Shown piece after piece: positions 19,910 through 38,508 of a DNA stretch of 64,000 nt; positions within the stretch are counted from its first letter, which is position 1; every line of letters begins with the position of its first letter. Both the position numbers and the translations under genes were made by a program. A model generated the notes under the pieces. The model made no database searches, was not told the DNA's origin, and was given only the letters and a program-made list of their open reading frames with translations. Source of the DNA: Thiotrichales bacterium (GTDB lineage Bacteria > Pseudomonadota > Gammaproteobacteria > Francisellales > CACEW01); NCBI GenBank assembly GCA_947476405.1, contig CANJQG010000007.1:447-64446 (forward strand), in the 5' to 3' direction.

Positions 19910-20980
19910 TTAGTGCCTGATGTCTTTTTTGATTTGTAAAATAGTATTCAGGGAAATGCCTGTTGATTTTGAGATTAGATCAACATCCGCGTCATTGAGT
20001 AATAAAGACGCAACGATATTGCGGCGCTCCACTTCGCGGCCTTGTTCAATACCTTGTTCAATACCTTGTTCGATGCCCTGTTCGATGCCTTGTTCGATGC
20101 CCTGTTCGATGCCTTGTTCGATGCCCTGTTCGATGCCTTGTTCGATGCCTTGTTCGATGCCTTGTTCATATCCTTCTTGCCTTCCATATTGGAATCCTTG
20201 GATTCTACCTTGTTTTCTTAATTGTTCTCCGTAAGTCATGATGAGTGGCTCCTCTTCTGGTAATTCTTGTAATAATAAGGCAATAAGCTTGTCGGCATTG
20301 TCGTCGTTTCCACATGCTTCGATAAGATAGTGTAACATATTTTGGAGGTAAAAATCATCTTCGATTCGTCGCCAAAGTGAAACAAGTTTTTTGATTTTTC
20401 TCGAAAGCTCGGCATCGCGACAGTGTTTAAAAAGGAATTCCATGAGCGCTGCTTTGCCATGTTGTTCAATTTTTTCATCAGGCAAAATAGTCAGATCAAT
20501 CAAATGAAATGGTTTAAATAAAAATTCTTGCGCGAGCTTAGGATTTTCAAAGCAATCAAACAGATAAGTTGAATGCGGATAGGGTGACTTTTCGCCATGA
20601 TAAAGGCAGATATTAATAATAATGGGTAGTTTTCCCTTATTTTGTTTGATATGTTGCCGCATGAGTGCAACATCATATTCAAGATAGCGAAAGGCCATCA
20701 ATGGGTCGTCAGTTGATTGATGTTCCAGTAAAAAGTACAGATAGCCTAAGTGTCCATCAATTTCAGCTTCATAAATTAAGTCGCTTTCACGGTGCTTCAG
20801 TTTTTTAGATACAAAAGATTTGTCGGTGAGTCGAAGTGTATCCAGATTAATCTTTGCAAGCAGTTCTGCAGGAAGTGTTGACTTTAATAAATCTAGTGTA
20901 ATTTTGACATCCGTACACATCGATTTAAACAGGGCATCATGGGGGTTTTGAATCTGATCAGGCTTTGATTTTTTGGACAT
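19910..20980 (-). CDS. Rpn-family recombination-promoting nuclease / putative transposase (PD-(D/E)XK, YhgA-like) with (QGIE)n tract
   Basis: N-terminal DALFK..., ESDLIYEAEIDG..YLYFLLEHQS and the AFRYLEY pattern are typical of Rpn/YhgA-like proteins. The C-terminus carries 10 QGIE repeats. Confidence 0.75.
   Translation of the reverse strand: MSKKSKPDQIQNPHDALFKSMCTDVKITLDLLKSTLPAELLAKINLDTLRLTDKSFVSKKLKHRESDLIYEAEIDGHLGYLYFLLEHQSTDDPLMAFRYLEYDVALMRQHIKQNKGKLPIIINICLYHGEKSPYPHSTYLFDCFENPKLAQEFLFKPFHLIDLTILPDEKIEQHGKAALMEFLFKHCRDAELSRKIKKLVSLWRRIEDDFYLQNMLHYLIEACGNDDNADKLIALLLQELPEEEPLIMTYGEQLRKQGRIQGFQYGRQEGYEQGIEQGIEQGIEQGIEQGIEQGIEQGIEQGIEQGIEQGIEQGREVERRNIVASLLLNDADVDLISKSTGISLNTILQIKKDIRH
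20033..20164 (-). repeat. 12-nt in-frame tandem repeat, 10 x QGIE + QGRE
   Basis: Alternating ccttgttcgatg / ccctgttcgatg units are visible on the plus strand. Confidence 0.9.
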
Positions 20981-26139: not shown

Positions 26140-26489
26140 TTTTGTCTTAAATGGCGGAGGGAAAGGGAGTCAGATTTTAGCCTACAAGCCTTATGTTTGC
26201 TTGTATTTTTTTGAGAGAGTGTCGAGGATGCCCCCAATAATGCCCCCAAAAAGTTTCGTCTAAAAGTAGTCTCGCGTTTTCTCCATGTCCTTTTTAAGAG
26301 TCCTTTGGTTTTTTAAACCAGATTCAGTTTACAATGCGCTGATTTTAAACGCAAGTGCTTGCTTTCTATAAAATGGGAATCGAACCAAAATCCTTAATTA
26401 TGCACATAAACTCGCGCATGACCAGGCTCTTGCCCTGCTTGCAAAAAGACAGGATAATAGGGGTAATCATTTTCAAATCACTGGGACTC

Positions 26490-27182
26490 ATGGAATCTTC
26501 GAGCAATAATGCCGCCTTTAGTTCCTTCAAAGATTTACAGGCATTGAAAGAGTCATTCAAAAAACCTGTGCAGACCAGCAAGAAAAAGCATCACTCCAAT
26601 TTTGAAGAGGCCAAGCAGGTGTTGAAGCAATTGAAAAAGACTTATCCAGTGGTTTTCAATGCCAATAAACCTTTGCCATTGGCGCTTGGAGCTGCAAAAG
26701 AGATTGCAAAAAATCTGCCGGAACTTTCTGCCTCCGTGTTGAGATTAGCGTTGGCCATCTGGACGAAGCAAGAAATCTATTTGCAGGCAGTGATTGCGGG
26801 TGGTGATCGATACAATCTCGATGGCTCGGTTTCGGGTGCAGTCCAAGAAGCGGAGAAGGAATACAGTCAAAAAATGCTTGAAAGAAAGCAGGCAAAACTA
26901 GAAAATAAACCAGGCGAAAACTATTGGGTCTATATTCTCGAATGCAGCAATGGCGCTTTTTATACCGGATGGACAAACGATTTAGAAAAGCGTTATCGCG
27001 ACCACTGCGAAGGCGGTGGGGCCAAATATACGCGCAGTTTTAAGCCTGTAAGAATTGCTCAAAAATGGCAGTTTGGCTCGCAGTCCTTGGCAATGCAAGC
27101 GGAGGCGCAAATTAAGAAATTGGCTCTTAAAGACAAAAAGAAAATAATCGACAGTCCTTCGTTATTCACAATCGCACAATAA
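26490..27182 (+). CDS. ProQ/FinO-domain protein fused to a GIY-YIG (YhbQ-type) nuclease domain
   Basis: The ProQ/FinO-like segment is LKKTYPVVFNANKPLPLALGAAKEIAKNL..SVLRLALAIWTKQEIYLQAVIAGGDRYNLDG (about nt 26601-26849). The GIY-YIG segment is YWVYILECSNGAFYTGWTNDLEKRYRDH...AMQAEAQIKKL (about nt 26919-27140). The ATG at 26490 is preferred over the ORF-track start 26355, whose extra 45 aa look non-coding. Confidence 0.8.
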   Translation: MESSSNNAAFSSFKDLQALKESFKKPVQTSKKKHHSNFEEAKQVLKQLKKTYPVVFNANKPLPLALGAAKEIAKNLPELSASVLRLALAIWTKQEIYLQAVIAGGDRYNLDGSVSGAVQEAEKEYSQKMLERKQAKLENKPGENYWVYILECSNGAFYTGWTNDLEKRYRDHCEGGGAKYTRSFKPVRIAQKWQFGSQSLAMQAEAQIKKLALKDKKKIIDSPSLFTIAQ

Positions 27183-27206
27183 CATAAAACAGCGTTTTTA
27201 AATATG

Positions 27207-27235
27207 TTGACTTGATGGGGCGGGTCTGCTAATGT
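27207..27235 (+). promoter_or_regulatory. cassette promoter P1 (TTGACT-17-TGcTAATGT)
   Basis: The -35 lies within ATGTTGAC, and there is an extended -10 TG. An upstream ACATAAAAC (27182-27190) is partially complementary to TATGT (27203-27207). Confidence 0.5.
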
Positions 27236-27263
27236 TTGCTTATTCAATGAAGGAGCGCGCACG

Positions 27264-28019
27264 ATGAGAATCACACTCAGGGCCAGGATAAGACATCCCG
27301 TAAAGTTTGAGTTTTATGATGACAGTAATAAAGTAATCGGTGTGCTCGACAGCCAAGAAGTGCGAGAGGTCAACACAATTAATGACGAAGATCGTTTCAA
27401 ATTTGCAATGGTTACAGACAATTTAACAGCCTGTGAAGATCTGTTCAAATGTGGTTATGAAAATCTCGAAAAATTGCCATTTTATGTGCCCAAAGAATTT
27501 ATGGATACATTGGGCGAGTTAGTTGTGGCTGCTCACAAAAAGAAAATCCCCTTCAAGCCTTCGCAAAAAATGCTTCGCGCGCTTTACCGCGAGGCCGAAC
27601 GCTTGCGCGCGCAATTGCGCATAGAAGGCGAAGACATGCCGGATATTTTAAAATATAAGGAAATTTTCAAGCTTGAAGAAGATCCAAAAATGCAGGATCT
27701 CAAAGCAAGTTCTGGCGCTAAAATTATGGCGGCAATGCTACAAATTAACGGCCCTTTCTTCGATCAATTTAATGAGATTGCGGCGGCAAATTATGGAAAG
27801 ATAAATCACAGTGTCAAAATACATCGCATTCAAGGTTACGCTCGCGGCCTTGATGAGCCGAGCAATTGGGGCTGTGCTGTAGCGCTAGAAGTTTTAAAGA
27901 AAAATAAAATCGACGTGTTCAAATTGGGTATTGATGAGGCAGTCATCAAGGAGATATGGCTCAAATCCAATAAGCAAGACGGTGAAGCCAGATTCAACGC
28001 GTTATTTAAAGGCGCATGA
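27264..28019 (+). CDS. hypothetical protein (251 aa), leading-region gene
   Basis: ORF with GAAGGAG 8 nt upstream of the ATG. No family recognised. Confidence 0.7.
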   Translation: MRITLRARIRHPVKFEFYDDSNKVIGVLDSQEVREVNTINDEDRFKFAMVTDNLTACEDLFKCGYENLEKLPFYVPKEFMDTLGELVVAAHKKKIPFKPSQKMLRALYREAERLRAQLRIEGEDMPDILKYKEIFKLEEDPKMQDLKASSGAKIMAAMLQINGPFFDQFNEIAAANYGKINHSVKIHRIQGYARGLDEPSNWGCAVALEVLKKNKIDVFKLGIDEAVIKEIWLKSNKQDGEARFNALFKGA

Positions 28020-28246
28020 TGAGCGGGCTATCCCTGTTTGGTTTGTTTGCTGTTGGTGCAATGTTGATATGTTATGCGCTGGAGCATCGCAGTCATTGGT
28101 TTATTCTGGCCTTCGCTTTTGCCTGTGGCTTGGCGTCTATCTATGGGTTTCTTCAAGGTGCTTGGCCCTTCGGGCTGGTTGAAGCTGTGTGGGCATTGGT
28201 TGCCTTGCATAAATGGCATAAGAGTGTCAGTAAAAATAAACATTAA
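28016..28246 (+). CDS. small membrane protein (76 aa, 2 predicted TM helices)
   Basis: ATGA start/stop overlap with the upstream gene. Two hydrophobic stretches. Confidence 0.55.
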   Translation: MMSGLSLFGLFAVGAMLICYALEHRSHWFILAFAFACGLASIYGFLQGAWPFGLVEAVWALVALHKWHKSVSKNKH

Positions 28247-28264
28247 AAAACGTATCTTTATATG

Positions 28265-28292
28265 TTGACATTGTAAGTTCACATGATATAAT
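28265..28292 (+). promoter_or_regulatory. cassette promoter P2 (TTGACA-16-TGaTATAAT)
   Basis: Consensus -35 and -10 with an extended -10 TG. An upstream ACATTAAAAA (28240-28249) is partly complementary to the TTTATATGT adjoining the -35. A conserved leader hairpin GCCCC-GAA-GGGGT lies at 28329-28341. Confidence 0.6.
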
Positions 28293-28362
28293 GGCTCTGT
28301 GATCTACTAAAAGGCCACAAAACACAACGCCCCGAAGGGGTAACAGCAAGGAGAGAGACATC

Positions 28363-28905
28363 ATGTCAACCGCAACATATTCAATCGCAAGTAGTAGTTT
28401 TAGCCAGTCCAAAAGCAAAGCCTGTTTTTTTATTTGCCGCAGCGGCCACCCGCAAGATGCCGCAAAGTATTTTCTAGCCATGCATAAGTGCGCCAATAAA
28501 TGGGGCGGCTATGCTGAGCAATTTTTGCGGGCCAACGAGCTTGCAGAGTTCACCGATAATCATGAGGCCAATGATGATACTCAGTACAGATACACCCTTG
28601 AAGAAAATGGGGTTTTGACTGTTCATCAAGTCAGTTTTTATAAGCGGAAAAAGTGGGGGGTCCTGTTTGTTGGTATGTGGTACGATTTTATCAATGAGTT
28701 TTTAGCCCTCCCTTTTGAAGAGCGTCTATTTCAGTTTACAGATTCTGAGTTTCTTGCCACATACAAGGTGATGACCATAAAAGAGGCGATTAAAGCAGCA
28801 TGCGAAAGCATTGACAATTATTTGCTCAAAGATGAGATCGGTGACTGCCTAATGAAGCATAGAAAGGAGTTCAATTCCCCTGATATAAAACAGCTATTTA
28901 AATAA
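28363..28905 (+). CDS. hypothetical protein (180 aa), leading-region gene
   Basis: ORF with AAGGAG 9 nt upstream. No family recognised. Confidence 0.7.
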   Translation: MSTATYSIASSSFSQSKSKACFFICRSGHPQDAAKYFLAMHKCANKWGGYAEQFLRANELAEFTDNHEANDDTQYRYTLEENGVLTVHQVSFYKRKKWGVLFVGMWYDFINEFLALPFEERLFQFTDSEFLATYKVMTIKEAIKAACESIDNYLLKDEIGDCLMKHRKEFNSPDIKQLFK

Positions 28906-28986
28906 AGAAAATCAGTTTATTAATATCTTTTTGAGAGTGTCTGATAAGTCGCTAATAATTAACATAAAAAAGATTTACTTTTTATG

Positions 28987-29015
28987 TTGACATTGGCGCG
29001 CACCCTTGATATACT
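28987..29015 (+). promoter_or_regulatory. cassette promoter P3 (TTGACA-17-TGaTATACT)
   Basis: Consensus -35 and an extended -10. A perfect 9-bp inverted repeat ACATAAAAA(28962-28970)/TTTTTATGT(28979-28987) abuts the -35. The leader hairpin GCCCC-AAT-GGGGT lies at 29052-29064. Confidence 0.6.
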
Positions 29016-29078
29016 GATTTTGTAGCCTAATGAGAGGTTGCAAAAGCAAAAGCCCCAATGGGGTAACAGGAGATGAAA

Positions 29079-29582
29079 ATGAGTGATATCAAAATTTATG
29101 TAGCAGACTTAGCCGCTTACAATAACGGCAAGCTTCACGGTGTTTGGATCGATGCAACCCAAGATGTTGACACCATCCAAGATCAAATCAATCAAATGTT
29201 AGCAAGTAGCCCTGAAATATCAGCAGAAGAGTGGTCAATCCATGGGTCGGAAGGTTTCGGTGAATATCGTTTAGGAAAGTCAACCAGCATCGAGACTGTC
29301 CACGAAATTGCAGAATTTATTGTAGAGCACGAAGACGTTGCACTTGCAGCCCTTCAATATTATAGTGACGTTAGCGAGGCCAAAGAAATGGTTGAAGATC
29401 ACTATCACGGCTGCCATTATTCAGAAGAAGAATTTGCAGAACAGCTTTATGCTGACTGTTATGAAATCCCCGAACACCTCCAGTATTACATCGATTATGA
29501 AAAGATAGCGCGTGACTTATTCATGGACGGCTATATTTCGATAGATGGCGAAGGTGGTCAAATTCACGTATTTTCAAACTAG
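29079..29582 (+). CDS. ardA: antirestriction protein ArdA
   Basis: IYVADLAAYNNGKLHGVWIDA... followed by an acidic body (EEFAEQLYADCYEIPEHLQYYIDYEKIARDLFMDGY) is the ArdA family pattern. The ATG at 29079 is better spaced from AGGAG than the ATG at 29073. Confidence 0.85.
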   Translation: MSDIKIYVADLAAYNNGKLHGVWIDATQDVDTIQDQINQMLASSPEISAEEWSIHGSEGFGEYRLGKSTSIETVHEIAEFIVEHEDVALAALQYYSDVSEAKEMVEDHYHGCHYSEEEFAEQLYADCYEIPEHLQYYIDYEKIARDLFMDGYISIDGEGGQIHVFSN

Positions 29583-29631
29583 AAAAACAAGGGCGGCTAA
29601 AGGCTGCCCGCACTCAATTAGAGCAAGGACA

Positions 29632-30072
29632 ATGATCATGACAATAGCAGCAGCAAACACTAAGCCAGGGGCCAACCCCAGCCTTAAAGCGCCCCAGGTA
29701 TCCAAAGCAAAAATATTCGGCCTGAAGCAATGGGCAATGCTCAAATACTCTTTCTCAATTGAACGTGCCTTGATTCATATGATCACCGCAGCGGTATTAT
29801 TCGGCTTGGCTTTATTTGTAAAAAACAGTCATGCAGTGGCAGGTGAAGGCTATATTTACGCGTGGTTGCTTTTTGCAGCCGCAGGAGTGCAGGCCTTCAG
29901 GGCTTGCCTTCACAGCATGACCCCCGTGGTGATTTTATTTCTGATTGGCTTTGGGGGTCAGTACCTTTTGCAAAGTCATGTTGACATTCATCTTACGAAG
30001 GAATATTTGCAGACTATTGCGGGCGCTGGGGTAATTGGTCTTGTAGTTTGCTGCTACTACAGATTAAGATAG
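29632..30072 (+). CDS. small polytopic membrane protein (about 147 aa), unknown function
   Basis: About four hydrophobic segments. The ATG at 29632 is preceded by AAGGA. The ORF-track start 29545 overlaps ardA and is unlikely. Confidence 0.6.
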   Translation: MIMTIAAANTKPGANPSLKAPQVSKAKIFGLKQWAMLKYSFSIERALIHMITAAVLFGLALFVKNSHAVAGEGYIYAWLLFAAAGVQAFRACLHSMTPVVILFLIGFGGQYLLQSHVDIHLTKEYLQTIAGAGVIGLVVCCYYRLR

Positions 30073-30097
30073 AGGCTTATTCCAGAATCAGAACTCT

Positions 30098-30673
30098 ATG
30101 AACGCAGAAAACAAAAAAGGCAAAAAAATCGGGCGACTGTTTTTAAAGGCAGTCGTCATTTTGTTTCTGTTGATTCTGCTTGTCATCGCCTTGCTGGATA
30201 TTTTTTCTGTGGCCGTGATATCGCTCGGCTATTATTTCAATTGGTCGTCATCAATGCCCATCGGTTTATACAAGGTGAGCGCGCCAACCAGTTTAAACCG
30301 TGGTGATGATGTCGTGGTCTGCTTGCCGCAATCAGTGGGAAGCATCGGCCTAAAGCGCGGATATTTAAACCCTGGCAGCTGTCCAGGTGGATACAGCCCC
30401 ATTATCAAAGAGCTCGCTGCCATGCCTGGCGATAACGTCACACTGACGCCTCAATTAATTGTGGTGAATGGTCAGGTTTATGATGCGCCTCTACACAAGC
30501 AAGACACAGACGGGCTACCTCTTGAGAGTGTACCCAGAGGCATCAACTCTCAAACGCCGGATTATTGGCTTTACGGCAAGGGTAGCCCTTCTGATTCTTG
30601 GGACTCACGCTATTGGGGAGGGGTAGGCCGAAGCAGCATTATTAAAAAGGCTGCTCCGGTACTGACCTATTAG
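30098..30673 (+). CDS. traF: conjugative transfer signal peptidase TraF (S26 family, pilin-maturation type)
   Basis: SSSMPIGLY, GDDVVVCLP, RGYLNPGSCPGGYSPIIKELAAMPGDNV and SWDSRYWG match the RP4/Ti TraF pattern. Confidence 0.85.
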   Translation: MNAENKKGKKIGRLFLKAVVILFLLILLVIALLDIFSVAVISLGYYFNWSSSMPIGLYKVSAPTSLNRGDDVVVCLPQSVGSIGLKRGYLNPGSCPGGYSPIIKELAAMPGDNVTLTPQLIVVNGQVYDAPLHKQDTDGLPLESVPRGINSQTPDYWLYGKGSPSDSWDSRYWGGVGRSSIIKKAAPVLTY

Positions 30674-30888
30674 GTTTTTAAAAACGCATTGATTCCCTTG
30701 GATTGAAAAAGCATCCGAGAGCCAGGCTCTCTCGCTAATTCCTCAACAATGGAAATCAGCGCCCCTAATATCACATCTTTTGATTCACGATGTAGGCCTG
30801 ATTTAATAATCAAGCCTCCATACTTAATCTTGAGGTGAGTTTTTGCGCGCTCCTGTTCATCACGTACCTTGCTATACTCTTTTTCCAT
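30670..30888 (-). CDS. traD: TraD-like small conjugal transfer protein (Ti-plasmid type)
   Basis: 72 aa. KIKYGGLIIKSGL....VILGALISI resembles the Ti/Rhizobium TraD core (K-I-x-LGGL-V-KAGL....LLGAL). This comparison is from memory. Confidence 0.55.
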   Translation of the reverse strand: MEKEYSKVRDEQERAKTHLKIKYGGLIIKSGLHRESKDVILGALISIVEELAREPGSRMLFQSKGINAFLKT

Positions 30889-31168
30889 TTTTGACAGCCT
30901 CCTTTTTAACAGTTTCAGGCTGTCCAGCTTCAGGACTTTTAGGCGGCCTCACAGAGATTTTTAGAAATTGCTCTCTTAAAAATCCAGTGTCATGGTCGCC
31001 GAGGTTGCATTCAAGGCAAAGTTTGCCGAGCTCATGAATCCGTTTTTTGACGGCTTGCTCATAAGCTTGGGCTGCGTGTTCAAGCGCGGCTTTGCGTTTT
31101 TGCATGATGAGGTGAGCATAAGAGGTTTTATTCTCTTCGCTGGTTTGGGTGTCGATTTTATCGGACAT
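30872..31168 (-). CDS. traC: TraC-like relaxosome accessory protein (Ti-plasmid type)
   Basis: First gene divergent from traA across the oriT region, as in Ti plasmids. HELGKLCLECNLGD..FLREQF resembles the TraC pattern. The ATG at 31168 has GGAG 9 nt upstream. The ORF track start is 31216. Confidence 0.45.
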   Translation of the reverse strand: MSDKIDTQTSEENKTSYAHLIMQKRKAALEHAAQAYEQAVKKRIHELGKLCLECNLGDHDTGFLREQFLKISVRPPKSPEAGQPETVKKEAVKNGKRV

Positions 31169-31433
31169 AGTGATTATCTCCATCTTGTTTATACCAAGAT
31201 AGAGGAACGTGTGCATTTTGGACTATACCACATTTAGTGGGTAAAAGTCAAATTTTCCTGAACGGTTTTCAGCAACGGATTTTAAACTAAATTTCAACAT
31301 CAGGTGGGCTTTTAAAAAGTGCCATTTTTGAGGAATTGCAAAATCAAGCAATGACGAGACTTACAAGCCTATTTACCCCCATTTGTAACAAAATAAGGAT
31401 GCTTTTTTAAAAACCCCCTTGAACCTCTGCGAA

Positions 31434-31507
31434 AGGCGACTTTGCTCGCCTGTAGCTAAACTCACCCTCGCCTGGCAGGGTGCGCAATATACATTGCTTT
31501 CGAATGT
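31434..31507 (-). other. candidate oriT (MOBQ/Ti-like nick core plus inverted repeats)
   Basis: The minus strand reads ACATT-CGAAAGC-AATGT-ATATTGCG-CACCCT (31507-31477), resembling RSF1010 GTAAGTGCG/CCCT and Ti TATAATTGCG/CCCT cores (recalled from memory). Inverted repeats are AGGCGA..TCGCCT (31434-31451) and CACCCTcGCCtGGCAGGGTG (31463-31482). It lies between divergent traC and traA. Confidence 0.5.
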
Positions 31508-31565
31508 GCTACATTTGCCATCCCGACTAAGTTTTTAATTAATTTTTTAAGCAAAGGAAGGTTGC

Positions 31566-34500
31566 ATGGCTATCGAGTTTGCTAGATGTGTAGTGTATTC
31601 CCGTTCGCAAGGCAAAAATGCCGTGCAAGCGGCTGCCTACCGTTCAGCATCTATCCTCTTCGATGATCGTACAGGGATGACTTTCGATTATCGCGATAAG
31701 CCGAATGTTGCCCACTCAGAGATCCTGCTTCCCGCTGGTGCAGATGCCGCATTTGCCGATCGTCAATTTCTCTGGAATGAAGTAGAGCGGGTTGAGATCC
31801 GTCGTGATGCTCAGGTTGCGAAGGATTATATTTTGGCCCTTCCCAAGGAATTGACCCTTGAGCAGAACATTGCGCTAGCCCGCCAATTCGCGCACGATCA
31901 CTTTGTCAGTAAAGGCATTCCCGTCGATCTCAATATTCACGTTGAAGACGGTAATATCCATGCGCACCTGCTGACCACCACCCGTCGCTTAGTCGGCAAG
32001 CATTTTTCGCTGAAAGCACGGGATCTCAATCCAGAATTCAATCAAGGGATCGTTGTTAAAAAAGACCCTTGGGGCGGCAAGTGGCGGGATGCTCAGGATA
32101 AGTTTTTTAAAGACAATGGGATTGATTTGGAAGTTGACCCAAACCACCTAATCCCCACACGCCATCGCGGCAGACCGCAGAATGACGATCGTGCGGAATA
32201 CCTGGATCAAGACAATCAGATGCGCCACGAAATGGAGAGGGAAATTGCCCTCAATGCACCCGCATCGCTTTTGAATATCATGAGTGAGCGCTATTCAGTA
32301 TTCAGCGATCGCGATTTGGCCTGCGTCGTCAATAAAGCCACGAATACCCCTGAAGAATTTGAGCTGGCAATATTGAGGGTCAAAGCCCATCCAGACCTCA
32401 TCACCCTTGGCCCTGGTGATGATGGACGCCTGCGCTATGCCACCCGTCAGTACATCAAAATGGAATGGACGATGGAAGAGCAGGCAGTGAAACTCAGTAA
32501 GGCCGAGCACCACATGGTGGCCTCCTGGAGATTGAAGGAGCAAATCGAAAAATACGATCTCAATAAAGGCCAGCAAGCCGCCCTCGAACATATCCTGATG
32601 GGTGGTGATATCGCTTTGGTGGTCGGTAAAGCTGGAACAGGCAAATCTTACATGATGAACGCCGCGCGTGAAGTGTGGGAGGCTGAAGGCTATCGCGTTA
32701 TAGGCGTTGCCGTTGCAGGGATTGCATCGGAAAGTTTAGAGTCCGGCTCAAATATTAAGAGCTCCACCATCGCCTCATTCAAGTACAAACTGGAAAAGGG
32801 AAAGCTCACCCTGGGTGAAAAAGATGTGATTGTTCTGGATGAAGCAGGGATGGCAGACAGTCGCGATCTCTCCAGGATTGTTGATCAGGTGCGCGCGGCA
32901 GGAGCGAAGCTCATTCTGGTCGGTGACCCCAGCCAAGTGCAAGCGGTTGGCCCAGGCGCACCATTCAGAGCCTTACTCGAAAGATTAGGCTTTGCGGAGC
33001 TGACCGAAATCAAACGCCAAAGATCCCTCGACGATCGACTTGCCACCACAATGCTCTCAATGGGTAAGGTTGGCGTTGCACTGGATAATTATGCCCATAA
33101 AGGTCAAGTCTTCTTGAGTGAAACCGAAGCCGCTAATCTGGATATGCTGATGAGTAAGTGGGGTCAACACATCACTGCCCGTGGCATTGGTGTCATGAAT
33201 GAAACCATTATTCTGGCCCACCGCAACGAAGACATTACCATCCTGAATCAACGCGCCCGCCAACAGCTCATCGAGGCAGGTATTTTAAAAGGAAAAGCCC
33301 ATGCCTTTGAAGTCAAAGATAATCGCGAAGGTCAGAAAGATAAGACCAAGCAAATCGAGTTGATGGTCGGTGAGCGGATTCTGTTTTTAGAAAATAGCTG
33401 GAAGCTGAATGTGAAGAATGGCCACTTTGCAACGATCACTGAAATAAAAGGCACTCAAATCACCGCAGTGATTGGCGAAGGTAAGAAAGCCAGAACAGTA
33501 AAATTTGATGGCAAAGAATATCAAAACTTTGACTATGGCTATGCGGCCACCGTTCATAAAAACCAGGGTGTCACCGTTGATACATCCTTCCTCTTCGTTG
33601 GTGGAAAATATTGGAGTCGCAATTTGATTTATGTGGCACTGACCCGTCACCGCGATTATGCCTATATCTTTGCGGATAAAGTCACCCATACCAATTTTGA
33701 AACCCTTAAGAAAAATCTGAGTCGCCTATCCATCAAAGATACGGTCATCGACTTCCCTCTAAATTACGCCATCCGCAGAGGCCTTGATCCAGATAAGGTC
33801 ATGGGTCAATGCCTGAATGCAATGAATCTCGCCAGGGGAAAAATTAAAGACACCTGGAGTTTCTTGGCTGATGTTGAAGCCTATAACGAAAAATTGGATC
33901 GTGTTAAAAAAGATGAGCTCAAAACCACTCGCCGTCAGGATGCGGTTGCAGTGGCGGTTTATGCTGATTTGAAACGTGGTGTAGGCACAGGCTGGTCGGA
34001 GATGAAGCGCAGCGCCATCCCAGGCAAAGATTTTAGCGAACACGCCGAATACGGCAAAAACTATGACCTGATGATCGCACGGAATAAGCAGGCGCATTTG
34101 CTCTATAACGAAGCCCACAAATATGAATTAGCGATGGAGCTCAACAATGTCAGCTTGGATGAACTGAAACGTTACAGCGCATCGCATGAAGCCAGAGAAC
34201 GGGTGCTACGCTATGAAGAGTTGGCTAAAAAAGGCCATAATCTCGATGCAGGTAAAGTCGCTGAAGAAATTAGGGCAGATGGCAGGTTACACGGCCAATT
34301 CATTCGGGAGCGTGGCCTAAGTTGGGATACGATCAACGCCCTGGGTAAACGTTATGCCACACTGACCCTTTTGCACTCCCTTGATCCAGTTGAACGCAAC
34401 AGACACCGCGAAGTCATGGAGTATCAGGGCAAAGGTAGAGCTTGCGTACAAGCGTTCAAGCATAAAAACCCTGATCCAGCCCTGGCATTGTTCGCTACCA

Positions 34501-37343
34501 GTGACCGCAATGCTGATGTGAAGGCGTTGAGAGTCCATCTTGCTCTGAGTGATTTAGACAAAGCCGCGCATCACTTATTCACGCATCAAGCTGAATATGC
34601 CAAAGCAATTGAGCAATTTAAAATCCCGCTGGATAAATTAGAGCGCGAAGCCAAACGTCATGAACACCGCCAAAGAGTGCTCGCATTCCTGAAAGCAGAA
34701 AAAGCAGGTCATATTCTCCTGAAAGAAAATATCGCCTTCAACATCAAGAAAGACCTGGCTGCCAACAAAAAAAGTTATGGCTCTGTGATCCGCGAGCTTG
34801 AATTTAAAGGCATGGAGTGGAAGAAAATTCATTTAGGTGCATGGGCTCATGATGAAAGGAGAAAACCGCTTCTTCATCCTGACCAAAAAGCGGCAGTCAA
34901 AGCGTATGCCGAATATCGTGCTGCGAATCGTGCAATCGGCAGAGCTGTACAAAGGAATAAAGACCTTATTAACGTGCGTACAGTGCCGTACACAATTGCG
35001 CTTCAAGCACCAAGTTTATTAACGCCAGAATGCCTCACCTTAATGCGTATCAACTTAATACAAAATGAGAAAAAATACGCAGCGCTTAAAAAGGCAGATA
35101 AGGTACGACGCAATAAAAAATACATGGTCATCAAGGGCGCAGTTTCAAACCGTGATGCAGCGGCTTATCGTCTATGGGATGAGATGATCGGTTTAGATGA
35201 ACGCTCTCTCAAGAAACTGGATATTGCACGCCTGAAAAAAGAAAGTGACACGCATACCAAACGTGAGGAAGTGAAAGCCTATGCTAAAGCTTGGCAGCCC
35301 CAATCCTTAAAAACCCAATTAGCTGCGAAAAAACTTCTCAATAACCCTGATTATGAAAAGCTGGTCAAAGAGCAGCGCCTACACTTCCGCATTGAGCCAG
35401 CGGTCAAAAACCTTGATAAACGCAAGGCACTTGCAGCACTCACACCAGAAAACCGTACGTTCTACAAAGAAGCCGAACACTATCGCAATTTAACTGCACA
35501 ATCAGCTAAAGCCTGGAAGCGTGCCTATGCTGCTACGAAGAGCAGTCAGGCAATTAGTGCCCTGGCTGTTAATACCAATATTGCCAAAGCCTTCGCTGAG
35601 CAAAAAAGCGAACTCGCCTTCAAAATTTATCAGAATTTTGAGCAATACAAGCCACATCTGGCGGCATTGGGTATTGATGAAGGTAAGCTGCAAAAAACAG
35701 CGCGTGATTATGGGGTCAAACAAACGTACGTAAATAAAGTACACGATTTACGCTCCAAAATAATGGGCGAAAATATCGAAGCTAAAAAAGAGACCTATAA
35801 CGCAGATCGTATTGGCGAGGCATTGATCAATATGGGTGAAAACTTCTATCAACAAGTGTTGGGAGATATCTACAGCAAGCCTAAACATAGCGGGCATAAT
35901 ATTCGAGTAGGCAAAAAAGGCTCCTTCTCAATTAATGTCAGTGGCCCACATGCAGGATCTTGGAAATCCTTTGAGTCTGGTGAAGGCGGTTACCCCATTC
36001 AGCTACTGATGAATGCCAATTATGGCTATGGCTTATCGTATGTGGATGCACTGGAAGCAGGAGCCAGAATTGCAGGGCTATCCGATTCACAGGCAAAAGA
36101 TATCACTTATATTCGCAAGCAAAAATCGGCTGAAGAGATTGAAGCTGAAGCGCGTACCCTTGCCTCAGAAAAACAACAGAGGATCGAAAATGCCCGCTAC
36201 TATTTCAAAACATCTCAACCCATTGCAGGCACTATTGCAGAGCGTTACCTGCGCGAAACACGCCATATCGAAGGTGATCTGTCAGGCTTTAGATTCCATC
36301 CGCGTGTAAAAGACCCGCAGAGCAAAGCTTATTATCCCGCTGCCTTAATCGCCGCTAAAAATGAGCAAGGCCATATCACGGCTACCCAAACTATTTTGAT
36401 TGATCCAGCTACCGCCAAAAAAGTAGATAAAGCTGAAGTCGATGTGCCAAAACGCACAAGAGGAGTGATCTCAGGCTCAGTGGCATTGATTCATAAAGGT
36501 GAGAGCAACAAAGTCATTATTGCTGAAGGGCCAGAAACCGCAGCATCTTTGATTAAAGCATTCCCTGATGCGAATATTTATGTGACGGTAGGGAATATTA
36601 GAAATGCTGAGCATTTAGCCTGGGTCGCCAAGAAGCATAGCACAGACACTTTCTATTTTGCAGCCGATAACGACGGAGAAAATCAGCGTCCAACCGAAGC
36701 ACTGAAAAAGGCAGCACAAAAGTTAGAGTCAGAGGGTATCAAGTGCTATAAAGCAACACCAAATCTCAGAGCCGTTGAGAAGCCAGATTATAACGACGTC
36801 CTGATTCATCAAGGTGTGGATGGTGTAAAACGTCAGATGAGCACCATGCGCCGAGTTCTCAACGAATCTGAGAAAATCAGCTTTGGCCTGACCCCGGTTA
36901 AAGCACAAGAAATCAAGCCAGAAAATAAACCTGTATTTTGGGTGTCTGGCGATAAGATTAGCTTGAGTGCGCCAGTACTCAAACAAGTCGAAGAATATGC
37001 AGCATTGAAAGAGCTGGAAAAAACCAAACGGCATGAGCTCAATAATCTGGTGATGGACAAAGGTAATCGGGCTGCGATTGATGAAGGGCATGCTCTCATC
37101 AAGACAGTCAAAGCCGATCAGTCTGTATTGCTGAGGGATCTCGCCAAACACGAAAAACTGTGGGAACAAGCGCGCTCTATGACCCCAGCAGGAGCAGGTG
37201 GCGTTAAGATCGATGCTGTTCAGATCAGGCGAAATTCTTTTGAGCCTAAAGATCTGAAGCAGCTGCATATTGAGGTACATTCGGCAGTACAGAGCCATAA
37301 GGCGAGCCTGAATCAAAATAAATCTGGAGGATGGTCTTATTAA
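31566..37343 (+). CDS. traA: conjugal transfer relaxase/helicase TraA (MobA/MobL relaxase + RecD-like helicase) with repeat-containing linker and C-terminal Toprim primase-like domain
   Basis: 1925 aa. The relaxase has catalytic Tyr context AAAYRS (aa 25) and HVEDGNIHAH (aa 125-134). The helicase has GKAGTGKS (aa 354-361), VIVLDEAGM, YAATVHKNQGVTVD and ALTRHR. The Toprim domain has IIAEGPETA (aa 1651-) and FAADNDGEN (aa 1698-). Confidence 0.92.
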   Translation: MAIEFARCVVYSRSQGKNAVQAAAYRSASILFDDRTGMTFDYRDKPNVAHSEILLPAGADAAFADRQFLWNEVERVEIRRDAQVAKDYILALPKELTLEQNIALARQFAHDHFVSKGIPVDLNIHVEDGNIHAHLLTTTRRLVGKHFSLKARDLNPEFNQGIVVKKDPWGGKWRDAQDKFFKDNGIDLEVDPNHLIPTRHRGRPQNDDRAEYLDQDNQMRHEMEREIALNAPASLLNIMSERYSVFSDRDLACVVNKATNTPEEFELAILRVKAHPDLITLGPGDDGRLRYATRQYIKMEWTMEEQAVKLSKAEHHMVASWRLKEQIEKYDLNKGQQAALEHILMGGDIALVVGKAGTGKSYMMNAAREVWEAEGYRVIGVAVAGIASESLESGSNIKSSTIASFKYKLEKGKLTLGEKDVIVLDEAGMADSRDLSRIVDQVRAAGAKLILVGDPSQVQAVGPGAPFRALLERLGFAELTEIKRQRSLDDRLATTMLSMGKVGVALDNYAHKGQVFLSETEAANLDMLMSKWGQHITARGIGVMNETIILAHRNEDITILNQRARQQLIEAGILKGKAHAFEVKDNREGQKDKTKQIELMVGERILFLENSWKLNVKNGHFATITEIKGTQITAVIGEGKKARTVKFDGKEYQNFDYGYAATVHKNQGVTVDTSFLFVGGKYWSRNLIYVALTRHRDYAYIFADKVTHTNFETLKKNLSRLSIKDTVIDFPLNYAIRRGLDPDKVMGQCLNAMNLARGKIKDTWSFLADVEAYNEKLDRVKKDELKTTRRQDAVAVAVYADLKRGVGTGWSEMKRSAIPGKDFSEHAEYGKNYDLMIARNKQAHLLYNEAHKYELAMELNNVSLDELKRYSASHEARERVLRYEELAKKGHNLDAGKVAEEIRADGRLHGQFIRERGLSWDTINALGKRYATLTLLHSLDPVERNRHREVMEYQGKGRACVQAFKHKNPDPALALFATSDRNADVKALRVHLALSDLDKAAHHLFTHQAEYAKAIEQFKIPLDKLEREAKRHEHRQRVLAFLKAEKAGHILLKENIAFNIKKDLAANKKSYGSVIRELEFKGMEWKKIHLGAWAHDERRKPLLHPDQKAAVKAYAEYRAANRAIGRAVQRNKDLINVRTVPYTIALQAPSLLTPECLTLMRINLIQNEKKYAALKKADKVRRNKKYMVIKGAVSNRDAAAYRLWDEMIGLDERSLKKLDIARLKKESDTHTKREEVKAYAKAWQPQSLKTQLAAKKLLNNPDYEKLVKEQRLHFRIEPAVKNLDKRKALAALTPENRTFYKEAEHYRNLTAQSAKAWKRAYAATKSSQAISALAVNTNIAKAFAEQKSELAFKIYQNFEQYKPHLAALGIDEGKLQKTARDYGVKQTYVNKVHDLRSKIMGENIEAKKETYNADRIGEALINMGENFYQQVLGDIYSKPKHSGHNIRVGKKGSFSINVSGPHAGSWKSFESGEGGYPIQLLMNANYGYGLSYVDALEAGARIAGLSDSQAKDITYIRKQKSAEEIEAEARTLASEKQQRIENARYYFKTSQPIAGTIAERYLRETRHIEGDLSGFRFHPRVKDPQSKAYYPAALIAAKNEQGHITATQTILIDPATAKKVDKAEVDVPKRTRGVISGSVALIHKGESNKVIIAEGPETAASLIKAFPDANIYVTVGNIRNAEHLAWVAKKHSTDTFYFAADNDGENQRPTEALKKAAQKLESEGIKCYKATPNLRAVEKPDYNDVLIHQGVDGVKRQMSTMRRVLNESEKISFGLTPVKAQEIKPENKPVFWVSGDKISLSAPVLKQVEEYAALKELEKTKRHELNNLVMDKGNRAAIDEGHALIKTVKADQSVLLRDLAKHEKLWEQARSMTPAGAGGVKIDAVQIRRNSFEPKDLKQLHIEVHSAVQSHKASLNQNKSGGWSY

Positions 37344-38168
37344 TCACCAGGGACTATCATCTTCTTCCATGCCATCTTCAGGGTCGTAGTCTTCAGCAGT
37401 CAAAATGGTCAAGACTTTACCGTATGAGCCAAGATCAATATACTCTTCTTGGATTTCGATATCTTTACTACCACCGCACCAGTCTTGAGTGGACATGGAG
37501 GCTTTGCCTTCTTTGCTTTGTGGAGATGCATCATATGTTGCTGACTCCCTTGGAATTGCATGTCCTTTTTGTGGCCAAGATAAATTTGGTATGTCTTTAA
37601 ATGCTTTAGAGGCTGAAAACCAGCAAACTTTATTGTTCTCGCTTAAAATAATTGCAGCTGGTATATCTGTGAGTTTAACATAGCGTAGGGCGGTAGATAT
37701 TAAGGATGTTTCAAAGCTATTGCTCAATGATTTTATTGCGGACATGCCTTCTGTTTTTTGCTTTTTTATCTGTGCTTTAAATAGGTTTTTTGGCATTAAT
37801 AAGTTTGCTGCAAACTCGTCAGCTTCTCGTTCATATGGATCATGAGAAAGATGCTCTCCTTTTGATTGATGATGCGTACTATTTTCAAGCAAATATTCAG
37901 GGTGTCCAGCTAGGCAGTAGTGTCCTAGCTCGTGAGCCACAGTAAAGCGCTTGAAGCGATCATTGTCAATCGCATTCGAGTATAGAATAATGAATTTGTC
38001 CCCCAGTTTATAAAATTGGCCAAAACAATTTTCTAAGGGTGCAGCTTCTACTATGATACCTTTTTTACTTGCAATCAAAAGTGGATCAACTGGTGCTTCT
38101 GTGATTTCGTATTCTATTAAAACTTGATTTGCAGCAGATTCTGCCTTGATTAGATTTGGCTTATTCAT
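37344..38168 (-). CDS. ImmA/IrrE-family metallopeptidase (COG2856-type)
   Basis: HEXXH appears in FTVAHELGHYCLAGH, followed by EREADEFAANLLMP. The start ATG at 38168 overlaps the XRE gene stop by 8 nt (ATGAATAA). The ORF track start is 38198. Confidence 0.8.
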   Translation of the reverse strand: MNKPNLIKAESAANQVLIEYEITEAPVDPLLIASKKGIIVEAAPLENCFGQFYKLGDKFIILYSNAIDNDRFKRFTVAHELGHYCLAGHPEYLLENSTHHQSKGEHLSHDPYEREADEFAANLLMPKNLFKAQIKKQKTEGMSAIKSLSNSFETSLISTALRYVKLTDIPAAIILSENNKVCWFSASKAFKDIPNLSWPQKGHAIPRESATYDASPQSKEGKASMSTQDWCGGSKDIEIQEEYIDLGSYGKVLTILTAEDYDPEDGMEEDDSPW

Positions 38169-38508
38169 CTGAAATTTTCTTATTCTTTTCTCTATCAATT
38201 AACATGTCGATAAAGCTTTGTAAAATAGCCCTATTATCATCATTTTGTACTTGATGTAAGTTGCGGTGGAGAACATCTGAAGTGCTATTAACGCTTTCAT
38301 TGAGTTCGTTTACGCGACCAATAAGATAGTCAGTGGAAACATCTAGCGCATCTGCAAGATTTTTTAGATTATCAAACGATGGTTTTCGTTTGTTATTTTC
38401 AAAAAGAGAGATGACAGAAGGAAGAAGTTTAGCTTTTTTAGCCAGGTCTCCTTGGCTTAGCCCTCTAATTTCTCTTGCCTTTCTAAGATTTTCAAAAAAA
38501 ACAGACAT
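38161..38508 (-). CDS. XRE-family helix-turn-helix transcriptional regulator
   Basis: 115 aa. LRKAREIRGLSQGDLAKKAKLLPSVISLFENNKRKPSFDNLKNLADAL is a classic Cro/C1 HTH. Confidence 0.85.
   Translation of the reverse strand: MSVFFENLRKAREIRGLSQGDLAKKAKLLPSVISLFENNKRKPSFDNLKNLADALDVSTDYLIGRVNELNESVNSTSDVLHRNLHQVQNDDNRAILQSFIDMLIDREKNKKISDE

What the first reader, a model, noticed from the sequence alone, without database searches (positions are those of the whole stretch)
31434..31507. Candidate oriT with an RSF1010/Ti-like nick core on the minus strand
This lies in the 349-nt gap between divergent traC-like and traA. The minus strand reads 5'-ACATT CGAAAGC AATGT ATATTGCG CACCCT-3'. The segment ATATTGCG/CACCCT resembles the MOBQ nick regions I recall for RSF1010 (GTAAGTGCG/CCCT) and pTiC58 (TATAATTGCG/CCCT). 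A short inverted repeat ends 8 nt before the presumed nick, as in R1162. Two stronger inverted repeats flank or overlap it: AGGCGA-N6-TCGCCT at 31434-31451, and CACCCTcGCCtGGCAGGGTG at 31463-31482. The relaxase N-terminus is MobA/MobL type (Tyr25, HxDxxxHxH), consistent with this class of nic site.
Basis: partly seen in the sequence, partly recalled or inferred. Interest (0 to 1): 0.55.

Follow-up and report, generated by a model that had tools for sequence, protein, structure and literature searches.

The report
Transfer origin of a Ti-type relaxase
This short stretch is very likely the site where a DNA-cutting enzyme encoded next door nicks one strand to start conjugative transfer of a mobile gene block; it is a clear new example of a well-known kind of site, not a new mechanism.

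Summary
On the minus strand, 31507-31477 reads ACATT-cgaaagc-AATGT-ATATTGCG/CACCCT, between a divergent traC-like gene and a 1925-aa TraA. TraA passes NCBI's Ti-type TraA cutoff and matches the MOBQ relaxase structures NES and R1162 MobA. In 66 related loci, TATATTGCGC occurs 56 times in 677 kb (about 1.3 expected). Of these, 54 lie just upstream of the relaxase gene on the opposite strand. An inverted repeat ends exactly 8 nt before the predicted nick in 42 of 46 distinct sites, and its arms covary (97% paired; 5 of 6 pairs changed on both sides). The same layout is present in RSF1010-type, pTiC58 and pSK41 oriTs. The predicted nick lies between G31483 and C31482 on the minus strand; this is inferred, not shown. 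The second inverted repeat (31463-31482) is an extended form of a family-wide pairing between nick+1..+3 and a distal triplet. In this clade the pre-nick hairpin is weak and the post-nick hairpin is strong. The site sits in a roughly 10.9-kb transfer-gene block with no coupling protein, secretion system or integrase in the window. Verdict: new member of a known kind; modest interest.

The parts
31482..31492 (-). Nick core 5'-GTATATTGCG/C-3'. The predicted cleavage is between G31483 and C31482 on the minus strand.
   Evidence: This is the only exact copy in the window. TATATTGCGC occurs 56 times in 677 kb of held sequence, and 54 of those copies lie upstream of TraA homologues on the opposite strand. 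It aligns with GTAAGTGCG/C of RSF1010, TAATTGCG C of pTiC58 and TAAGTGCG C of pSK41.
31491..31507 (-). IR1, the pre-nick hairpin ACATT-cgaaagc-AATGT. It ends 8 nt 5' of the nick. The proximal arm lies within the clade-invariant block AAGCAATGTATATTGCGCA.
   Evidence: In 42 of 46 distinct sites a stem of at least 5 bp ends exactly at -9; the mean is 5.7 bp against 2.7 in shuffles. The stem is 97% paired, and 5 of 6 pairs change on both sides. In the window itself it is only -1.2 kcal/mol.
31507..31511 (-). TAGCA box just 5' of IR1. It is conserved in most relatives and present in pSK41 as TTTAGCAC.
31463..31482 (-). IR2, the post-nick hairpin CACCCT-gccaggcg-AGGGTG, which starts at nick+1.
   Evidence: It covaries within the clade: CACCCT/AGGGTG, CAGGGG/CCCCTG and AGGGC/GCCCT. 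Predicted energies are -5.3 to -7.2 kcal/mol. The family-wide pairing of +1..+3 with a distal triplet followed by A is found in 35 of 54 sites, against 11% at random positions and 0 of 5000 permutations.
31434..31451 (.). IR3, AGGCGA-N6-TCGCCT. The arms are conserved in the clade and the loop varies. It is a candidate binding site for an accessory protein.
   Evidence: Alignment A2; -5.3 kcal/mol, z -2.8. There is no covariation, so it is constrained as sequence rather than shown to be a structure.
31222..31251 (-). Promoter-like site TTGACT-18-TATAGT for traC and traD.
   Evidence: It is conserved in L003 and L001.
30872..31216 (-). traC-like accessory gene. The likely true start is the ATG near 31168.
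   Evidence: hhalign of the family profile against pTiC58 TraC gives 95.3% probability, E 2.1e-8. Homologues follow the nick region in most loci.
30670..30888 (-). traD (Ti-type small TraD).
   Evidence: Pfam PF06412, 50.7 bits against a cutoff of 22.3.
31566..37343 (+). traA, encoding a MOBQ relaxase (Tyr25; His125, His132, His134), an SF1 helicase, and a C-terminal DUF7146 plus Toprim region.
   Evidence: dN/dS is 0.09 against L003.
30098..30673 (+). traF (Ti-type pilin-processing signal peptidase).
   Evidence: TIGR02771, 130.9 bits against a cutoff of 100.25.
26490..37343 (.). Conserved portable block running from a finO/proQ-GIY-YIG gene through ardA, traF, traD, traC and oriT to traA.
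   Evidence: It is collinear with L003 at 89.5% nucleotide identity only between these coordinates, and the flanks are unrelated.

Best explanation
This is the nic region of the origin of transfer of a Ti-type (TraA/TraC/TraD, MOBQ) DNA-processing module. The N-terminal relaxase domain of TraA recognises, on the minus strand, the proximal arm and hairpin IR1 plus the 8-nt single-stranded stretch ATATTGCG. It cleaves between G31483 and C31482, and Tyr25 becomes linked to the 5' phosphate of C31482. The minus strand is then unwound 5'->3' by the TraA helicase. traC, traD and the ardA-containing region enter the recipient first, and traA enters last. TraC and TraD probably bind the adjacent repeats (IR3, possibly IR2) to help melt the site and to repress the divergent promoters, as in Ti plasmids. 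The hairpin that begins at nick+1 (IR2) is the local, enlarged form of a pairing conserved across the family. It probably helps to extrude or position the scissile bond. Shown: gene family assignments, conservation, covariation, and layout identical to experimentally nicked oriTs. Inferred: the exact nick position, the roles of IR2 and IR3, and activity in this host.
For: TraA passes the TraA_Ti equivalog model, and its relaxase domain matches NES (E 5e-30) and R1162 MobA (E 7e-6). The core TATATTGCGC is found 54 times in the same place and on the same strand relative to TraA homologues, and only twice elsewhere in 677 kb. The hairpin is anchored 8 nt from the nick in 42 of 46 sites, with at least five arm variants. 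An unfitted pair count gives 97% paired, against 76% in shuffles and 22-49% in slid controls, with 5 of 6 pairs compensatory. RSF1010, where the nick was mapped (PMC4814116), has the same architecture and strand, as do pTiC58, pSK41, pGDIA01 and an Aquicella plasmid. Against L003 the intergenic region has 10 differences in 349 nt, and only one between 31423 and 31565, while synonymous sites in traA differ at 36%. The genes downstream of the nick, including ardA, are oriented so that the predicted T-strand is their template, as expected of a leading region. No Rfam family matches the gap.
Against: No experiment exists for this element or, as far as I could find, for any close relative. The window's own IR1 is weak (5 bp, -1.2 kcal/mol, no better than shuffles), and the single-strand fold prefers alternative pairings. 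The bases after the nick are CACCCT rather than the commonest CCCTT. No coupling protein, T4SS or integrase is present in 64 kb. The site may therefore depend on a helper encoded elsewhere, or the block may be a remnant. The nick positions in pTi and pSK41 rest on my memory of papers that are not held.
Confidence: 0.88

Rival explanations
1. The repeats are chiefly operators and promoter elements for the divergent traC and traA genes. The nick motif would then be a conserved but no longer used relic in a stranded, non-transferable gene block.
For: A promoter-like site lies in the gap. In Ti plasmids TraA, TraC and TraD repress both promoters at oriT (PMC3907764). No T4CP, T4SS or integrase is in the window, and IR1 is weak.
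Against: traA is under strong purifying selection over its full 1925 aa (dN/dS 0.09). The nic region has one change in 143 nt at dS of about 0.5. The block sits in different flanks in two genomes, which implies recent mobility. Regulation and nicking are not mutually exclusive.
Confidence: 0.08
2. IR2 and/or IR3 are single-strand initiation (priming) signals. The Toprim domain at the C-terminus of TraA would use them to start complementary-strand synthesis in the recipient, and they would not be part of nick-site recognition.
For: TraA carries DUF7146 plus Toprim_3. Some MOBQ relaxases are fused to primases needed for transfer (PMC12857230). IR2 and IR3 are stable hairpins on the transferred strand.
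Against: The pairing of +1..+3 with a distal triplet also occurs in relatives whose TraA is 850-1080 aa and lacks the Toprim extension, and in pTiC58 and pSK41. IR2 is therefore not tied to the primase domain. The evidence does not bear on IR3.
Confidence: 0.1
3. The resemblance to MOBQ nick sites is a chance match in an AT-rich intergenic region.
For: Within the window alone the motif is not enriched, and IR1 is not more stable than shuffles.
Against: There are 54 syntenic copies among relatives against about 1.3 expected, with covarying arms and fixed spacing.
Confidence: 0.01

Closest known systems
oriT of Ti plasmids (pTiC58/pTiR10), between traA and traC, processed by TraA with TraC and TraD
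   Same: The gene layout is the same: traD<-traC<-oriT->traA, with traF nearby. The strand is the same. A hairpin is followed by TATA(A)TTGCG C. The family consensus GTATATTGCGCCCTTGG differs from pTiC58 GTATAATTGCGCCCTTGG by a single-base indel. There is a post-nick CCC...GGGA pairing. TraA passes the TraA_Ti equivalog model.
   Different: The relaxase domain is only about 35% identical to plasmid TraA proteins. The window has CACCCT after the nick. IR1 has 5 bp against 7 GC-rich bp (-1.2 against -8.0 kcal/mol). There is no traG after traD, and no quorum-sensing tra box is evident. TraA is 1925 aa against 1100 aa and has an added Toprim region. The module is chromosomal in a gammaproteobacterium.
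oriT of IncQ plasmids RSF1010/R1162 (MobA, MobB, MobC)
   Same: An inverted repeat, 8 nt, then the nick at TGCG/C. The accessory gene reads away from the nick on the nicked strand. There is a post-nick CCC...GGGA pairing. The relaxase fold is MOBQ with Tyr25 and three histidines (PMC6856555).
   Different: The pre-nick 8-mer is ATATTGCG against TAAGTGCG. The match to MobA is weak (E 7e-6). The accessory proteins are different (TraC/TraD against MobB/MobC). Here a helicase is fused to the relaxase.
oriT of staphylococcal pSK41/pLW1043, nicked by NES (structure 4HT4)
   Same: This is the best structural relative of the relaxase domain (E 5e-30). The site shares TTTAGCAC-hairpin-ATAAGTGCG CCCTTACGGGAT: the TAGCA box, the hairpin spacing, TGCG/C and CCC...GGGA. 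The literature reports an invariant core with a variable hairpin that sets specificity (PMC4993578), and the same pattern is seen here.
   Different: The host is Gram-positive, the accessory genes differ, and the hairpin is 7 bp and GC-rich.
TraA relaxase modules of Legionella genomic islands (for example the Lvh island)
   Same: These are the closest sequenced relatives (43-51% identity). They share the GTATATTGCG/C core, TraC-like gene and TAGCA box. PMC3864950 mentions a TraA relaxase in the Lvh island.
   Different: The Legionella sites have a stronger IR1 (6 bp, -4.3 to -4.5 kcal/mol), mostly CCCTT after the nick, a TraA of 850-1080 aa, and in 11 loci a T4CP gene nearby. I found no paper in the held library that describes their oriT.

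Membership tests
MOBQ / Ti-type TraA oriT (nic region) | A cognate MOBQ relaxase with a catalytic Tyr and a 3-His motif is encoded next to the site. | tested here: met
   PF03389 at 1.8e-43; TIGR02768 at 716 bits against a cutoff of 590; NES 4HT4 at E 5e-30; Tyr25, His125, His132 and His134.
MOBQ / Ti-type TraA oriT (nic region) | The conserved nick core ...TGCG/C lies on the strand opposite the relaxase gene. | tested here: met
   GTATATTGCG/C at 31492-31482 on the minus strand. It aligns with RSF1010, pTiC58 and pSK41 and is invariant in 54 relatives.
MOBQ / Ti-type TraA oriT (nic region) | An inverted repeat lies 5' of the nick and ends about 8 nt from it. | tested here: met
   ACATT/AATGT ends 8 nt from the nick. 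The spacing is identical in 42 of 46 relatives and the arms covary. The window's own stem is weak.
MOBQ / Ti-type TraA oriT (nic region) | The site lies between divergent relaxase and accessory-protein genes (traA | traC, traD). | tested here: met
   TraD by Pfam; TraC by hhalign at 95% probability.
MOBQ / Ti-type TraA oriT (nic region) | The relaxase cleaves strand- and site-specifically, with covalent 5' attachment. | not testable with these tools
   This needs in vitro nicking or primer extension.
MOBQ / Ti-type TraA oriT (nic region) | The site is sufficient in cis for mobilisation. | not testable with these tools
   This needs a mating assay.
Self-transmissible conjugative element (ICE or conjugative plasmid) | Its own coupling protein and mating-pair formation genes. 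| tested here: not met
   Pfam and NCBIfam scans of ORFs from 14 to 52 kb found none, and tblastn with pTi TraG found no hit in the window. Only traF is present.
Integrative mobilisable element | An integrase or excisionase and flanking attachment repeats. | tested here: not met
   No recombinase domain was found in 26-42 kb. The window has no tRNA gene. No convincing flanking direct repeats were found.

The most novel reading that the evidence does not exclude
A helix between the first three bases after the nick and a distal triplet is a conserved, previously unremarked determinant of MOBQ oriTs, from IncQ through Ti and pSK41 to Legionellales. In this Francisellaceae-labelled clade it has grown to 5-7 bp, while the classical pre-nick hairpin has decayed. 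The relaxase would then cut at the foot of a hairpin, a layout closer to rolling-circle Rep substrates than to textbook relaxase substrates. The two TraA paralogues that coexist in each genome share the 19-nt core and would be kept apart by this post-nick hairpin.
Probability: 0.2. Interest if true: 0.55.

Novelty: new member of a known kind. Interest (0 to 1): 0.3.

Why it matters
The result gives a precise, testable oriT and nick coordinate for a family of Ti-type relaxase modules. This family is widespread in Legionellales and related uncultured gammaproteobacteria, and I found no published oriT for it in the held library. It gives a simple search pattern for annotating such elements: hairpin-ATATTGCG/C, opposite traA. 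It also points to a portable oriT-plus-relaxase block that has no secretion machinery of its own. Such a block could mobilise adjacent chromosomal DNA if a helper T4SS is present. The covarying post-nick pairing is a small but checkable addition to the picture of how MOBQ relaxases read their sites.

Tried and rejected
- Searching the window alone for the motif with mismatches showed no enrichment.
- Energy folding of the 96-nt single strand gave only z -2.1 and preferred alternative hairpins, so it cannot decide the structure.
- A generic test for any stem starting at nick+1..+3 was not significant: mean 2.7 bp against 2.3 at random positions. Only the specific triplet test was significant.
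- A blastn of the Legionella-type 55-mer against PLSDB found nothing.
- A literature search for the core sequence returned only chance hits.
- Cook & Farrand 1992, Cho & Winans 2007, Edwards 2013 and Perez-Mendoza 2006 are not held.
- BLASTP of the 114-aa ORF against pTi TraC was not significant on its own (E 0.31); a profile was needed.
- MAFFT could not put different loop lengths into one register. The tool-based pair count therefore used the largest single-register class.
- A look-up of the thymidylate synthase gave only unnamed metagenome contigs, so the host stays 'Francisellaceae-labelled MAG'. G+C of 41-46% over most of 20-48 kb argues against Francisella proper; that judgement rests on my own knowledge.
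- I rejected a known RNA family, a tRNA-linked island and a terminator.

Full report
**1. The observation.** On the minus strand the region reads 5'-TGTAGC ACATT cgaaagc AATGT ATATTGCG CACCCT gccaggcg AGGGTG ...-3'. ACATT is at 31507-31503, AATGT at 31495-31491, ATATTGCG at 31490-31483 and CACCCT at 31482-31477. The two other inverted repeats are at 31463-31482 and 31434-31451. The gap between the 114-aa minus-strand ORF and traA is 349 nt.

Taken alone, none of this is statistically remarkable. The 11-mer with up to two mismatches is found 19 times in the window against 18.5 expected. The 5-bp hairpin is no more stable than shuffled sequence (-1.2 kcal/mol, z -0.55).

**2. The neighbours.**
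- The 1925-aa protein at 31566-37343 has MobA/MobL, SF1-helicase (AAA_30), DUF7146 and Toprim_3 domains.
- It scores 716 bits on NCBI's Ti-type TraA equivalog model, against a cutoff of 590.
- Its first 250 residues match the two solved MOBQ relaxases: NES of pLW1043 (E 5e-30) and MobA of R1162 (E 7e-6). Tyr25 aligns at the catalytic position.
- The histidine triad is H125, H132 and H134.
- Divergently transcribed are a TraD (Pfam PF06412) and the 114-aa ORF. That ORF has no Pfam hit and only E 0.31 against pTiC58 TraC by BLASTP.
- A profile of the equivalent small ORFs from related loci matches pTiC58 TraC at 95% probability, E 2e-8.
- A Ti-type TraF peptidase follows.

The layout is therefore traD<-traC<-gap->traA, as in Ti plasmids.

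**3. Comparative test.** A scan of one genome per species with a relaxase-domain alignment returned 66 loci.
- Two are near-identical modules in MAGs labelled Francisellaceae or Francisella (L003 99%, L001 96% amino-acid identity).
- One is at 73%.
- Three are at 58%. These are paralogues in the same three MAGs.
- About 55 are Legionellales at 40-51%.
- A few are more distant.

In the 677 kb then held, TATATTGCGC occurs 56 times, against about 1.3 expected. Of these, 54 lie 40-125 nt upstream of the relaxase start on the opposite strand. Distant alphaproteobacterial and Rickettsiaceae relatives keep (G)TATATTGCG/T. The loci without the motif end within about 130 nt of the gene (L002, L005, L008, L048, L052).

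In 42 of 46 distinct sites, a stem of 5-9 bp ends exactly 8 nt before the predicted nick. The mean is 5.7 bp. For shuffled 5' flanks the mean is 2.7 bp, and the highest mean in 2000 trials was 3.7 bp. The 3' arm comes in at least six versions (GAATGT, CAATGT, GTTTGT, AGATGT, GTTTGC, CAACGT), each matched by its partner.

I then made an unfitted count on the 18 distinct sequences that share one register. It gives 97.2% paired cells, against 76% in shuffles (0 of 500) and 22-49% when the partner is slid. Five of six pairs change on both sides.

**4. Reference origins.** I checked the recalled references against real records.
- RSF1010 reads ...GAGAAACCGGTAAGTGCG/CCCTCCC, with the slash at the mapped nick (PMC4814116). 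An IncQ1 plasmid shows the flank CCCTCCCCTACAAAGTAGGGTCGGGATT, with mobC reading away from it.
- pTiC58 reads CGTCGCgtcaGCGACGTATAATTGCGCCCTTGGATCCGCTCTCGTCGAGCGGCGGGATC on the strand opposite traA.
- pSK41 reads TTTAGCACGCGAACGgaaCGTTCGCATAAGTGCGCCCTTACGGGAT opposite nes.
- pGDIA01 and an Aquicella plasmid read hairpin-ATAAGCGCG CACT.

The consensus of the present family, GTATATTGCGCCCTTG, differs from pTiC58 by one base of length. The CA that follows the nick in the window also occurs in seven other relatives and in pGDIA01 and Aquicella.

Wetzel et al. state that the Ti oriT core is related to RSF1010 and that the nic site mapped by Cho and Winans lies in the most conserved part (PMC4700958). 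The exact pTi and NES nick positions rest on my memory, because those papers are not held.

**5. Selection.** Against L003, traA has dS of about 0.50 and dN/dS of 0.09. Amino-acid identity falls from 99.6% in the relaxase domain to 80-89% in the C-terminal third. The 349-nt gap has only 10 differences, and only one between 31423 and 31565. That one is the T/C at 31477 in the post-nick stem. Synonymous sites differ at 36%. The nic region is thus under strong constraint.

**6. The other two repeats.**
- *IR2 within the clade.* In the window's clade, IR2 begins at nick+1 and changes sequence while keeping its pairing: CACCCT/AGGGTG, CACC-CCG/CGG-a-GGTG, A-AGGGC/GCCCT-T, CAGGGG/CCCCTG. Predicted energies are -5.3 to -7.2 kcal/mol.
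- *The same pairing across the family.* The first three post-nick bases are matched by their reverse complement followed by A within 30 nt in 35 of 54 distinct sites. By triplet: CCC/GGGA 23 of 34, CAC/GTGA 7 of 7, CTC/GAGA 3 of 5, CCG/CGGA 1 of 1, CAG/CTGA 1 of 1. The rate at random positions is 11%. When the triplets are permuted among sites the mean is 17.3 sites and none of 5000 permutations reaches 35.
- *Reference oriTs.* RSF1010, pTiC58 and pSK41 all show CCC...GGGA. The variable spacing (3-19 nt) argues for an intrastrand or cruciform structure rather than a dimeric protein site. A generic stem-length test was not significant, so this rests on the triplet covariation only. I found no description of it in the held library.
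- *IR3.* AGGCGA-N6-(T/C)CGCCT has conserved arms and a variable loop in the clade. This shows sequence constraint but not structure. A binding site for TraC or TraD is the simplest reading; that is inference.

**7. A clade peculiarity.** The pre-nick hairpin is marginal in this clade: window -1.2, L006 -2.3, L004 -0.4 and L001 -3.5 kcal/mol. Elsewhere the values are -4.3 to -4.5 in Legionella, -4.7 in RSF1010, -7.7 in pSK41 and -8.0 in pTiC58. Yet the proximal arm is part of an invariant 19-nt block, AAGCAATGTATATTGCGCA.

The three MAGs each carry two TraA paralogues that share this block but differ in IR2. This suggests that IR2, or the accessory proteins, separates the two systems. That is inference.

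**8. Context and mechanism.** L003 is collinear with the window only from 26490 to 37343. The right boundary is exactly the traA stop, and the flanks are unrelated. The block contains a finO/proQ-GIY-YIG gene, unknown ORFs, ardA, traF, traD, traC, the oriT and traA.

No coupling protein, T4SS gene, integrase or tRNA gene was found in the window. Eleven Legionella loci do have a T4CP homologue within reach. The block is therefore best seen as a portable DNA-processing module that needs a helper mating apparatus. The presence of traF hints at a P-type pilus system; that is inference.

With the nick on the minus strand, transfer proceeds towards lower coordinates, so ardA lies 1.9-2.4 kb into the leading region. 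All genes there except traC and traD are on the plus strand, so they are templated by the incoming strand. Two repeated promoter-operator units lie in front of orf180 and ardA: TTGACA-17-TATAAT and TTGACA-17-TATACT. This orientation is what is expected of a leading region and independently fits the strand assignment.

**9. Verdict.** This is a new, uncharacterised member of the MOBQ/Ti-type oriT family, with the nick predicted between 31483 and 31482 on the minus strand. It is ordinary in kind. The points worth a specialist's attention are the covarying post-nick pairing, the weak classical hairpin in this clade, the unusually long TraA with a Toprim extension, and the absence of any mating machinery near the module.

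Noticed in passing
window 31566-37343 (TraA residues ~1000-1925): TraA here and in L003 is 1925 aa, whereas most relatives are 850-1080 aa (L011 is 1778 aa). The extra C-terminal part carries DUF7146 and Toprim_3, giving a relaxase, helicase and primase-like triple fusion. It evolves faster than the relaxase domain (80-89% against 99.6% identity to L003).
   Followed up: partly
window 26490-37343: The block shared with L003 ends exactly at the traA stop and starts just before a finO/proQ-GIY-YIG gene, and the flanks are unrelated in the two genomes. No integrase, T4CP, T4SS or tRNA gene is anywhere in the 64 kb. How the block moves and integrates is unexplained.
   Followed up: partly
L003/L004, L001/L006, L002/L005: Each of three MAGs carries two TraA paralogues, one of the window type and one at 58% identity. 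Where the upstream region is available (L004, L006), their oriTs share the 19-nt core AAGCAATGTATATTGCGCA but have different post-nick hairpins.
   Followed up: partly
window 28226-28273 and 28948-28995: Two 48-nt repeats (77% alike) each hold a near-consensus promoter (TTGACA-17-TATAAT; TTGACA-17-TATACT). Each promoter is overlapped by an inverted repeat, AACATnAAAAA...TTTnTATGTT. They lie in front of a 180-aa ORF and ardA in the predicted leading region and are probably co-regulated by one repressor.
   Followed up: no
window 26355-27182: This ORF combines a ProQ/FinO RNA-chaperone domain with a GIY-YIG nuclease domain. Judging from where homology with L003 begins, its real start is probably near 26490.
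   Followed up: no
L017, L023, L030, L058 and other Legionella loci, about 33-50 nt after the nick: A further conserved element, TTCGCTGCGCTCA or TTCGCTTCGCTCA, follows the post-nick pairing in many Legionella sites. It occupies about the same position as IR3 (AGGCGA-N6-TCGCCT) in the window's clade, but the sequence is different.
   Followed up: no
window 37344-38508: An ImmA/IrrE-type M78 peptidase and an HTH repressor pair lie directly after traA but outside the block shared with L003. This could be a regulatory module of a neighbouring or larger mobile element.
   Followed up: no
L002 79-111 and L005 about 50-128: The upstream regions of these two TraA genes are replaced by a shared sequence (GGTAGGTGGGAACGCCACATTACTGCAACGCTCCCCCATAAAAACCGTACA) that runs to the contig ends. 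It looks like the end of a repeated insertion element that has displaced or split the oriT.
   Followed up: no
window 19910-20980: A YhgA-like Transposase_31 (Rpn-type) gene lies between chromosomal genes about 5.5 kb left of the module.
   Followed up: no
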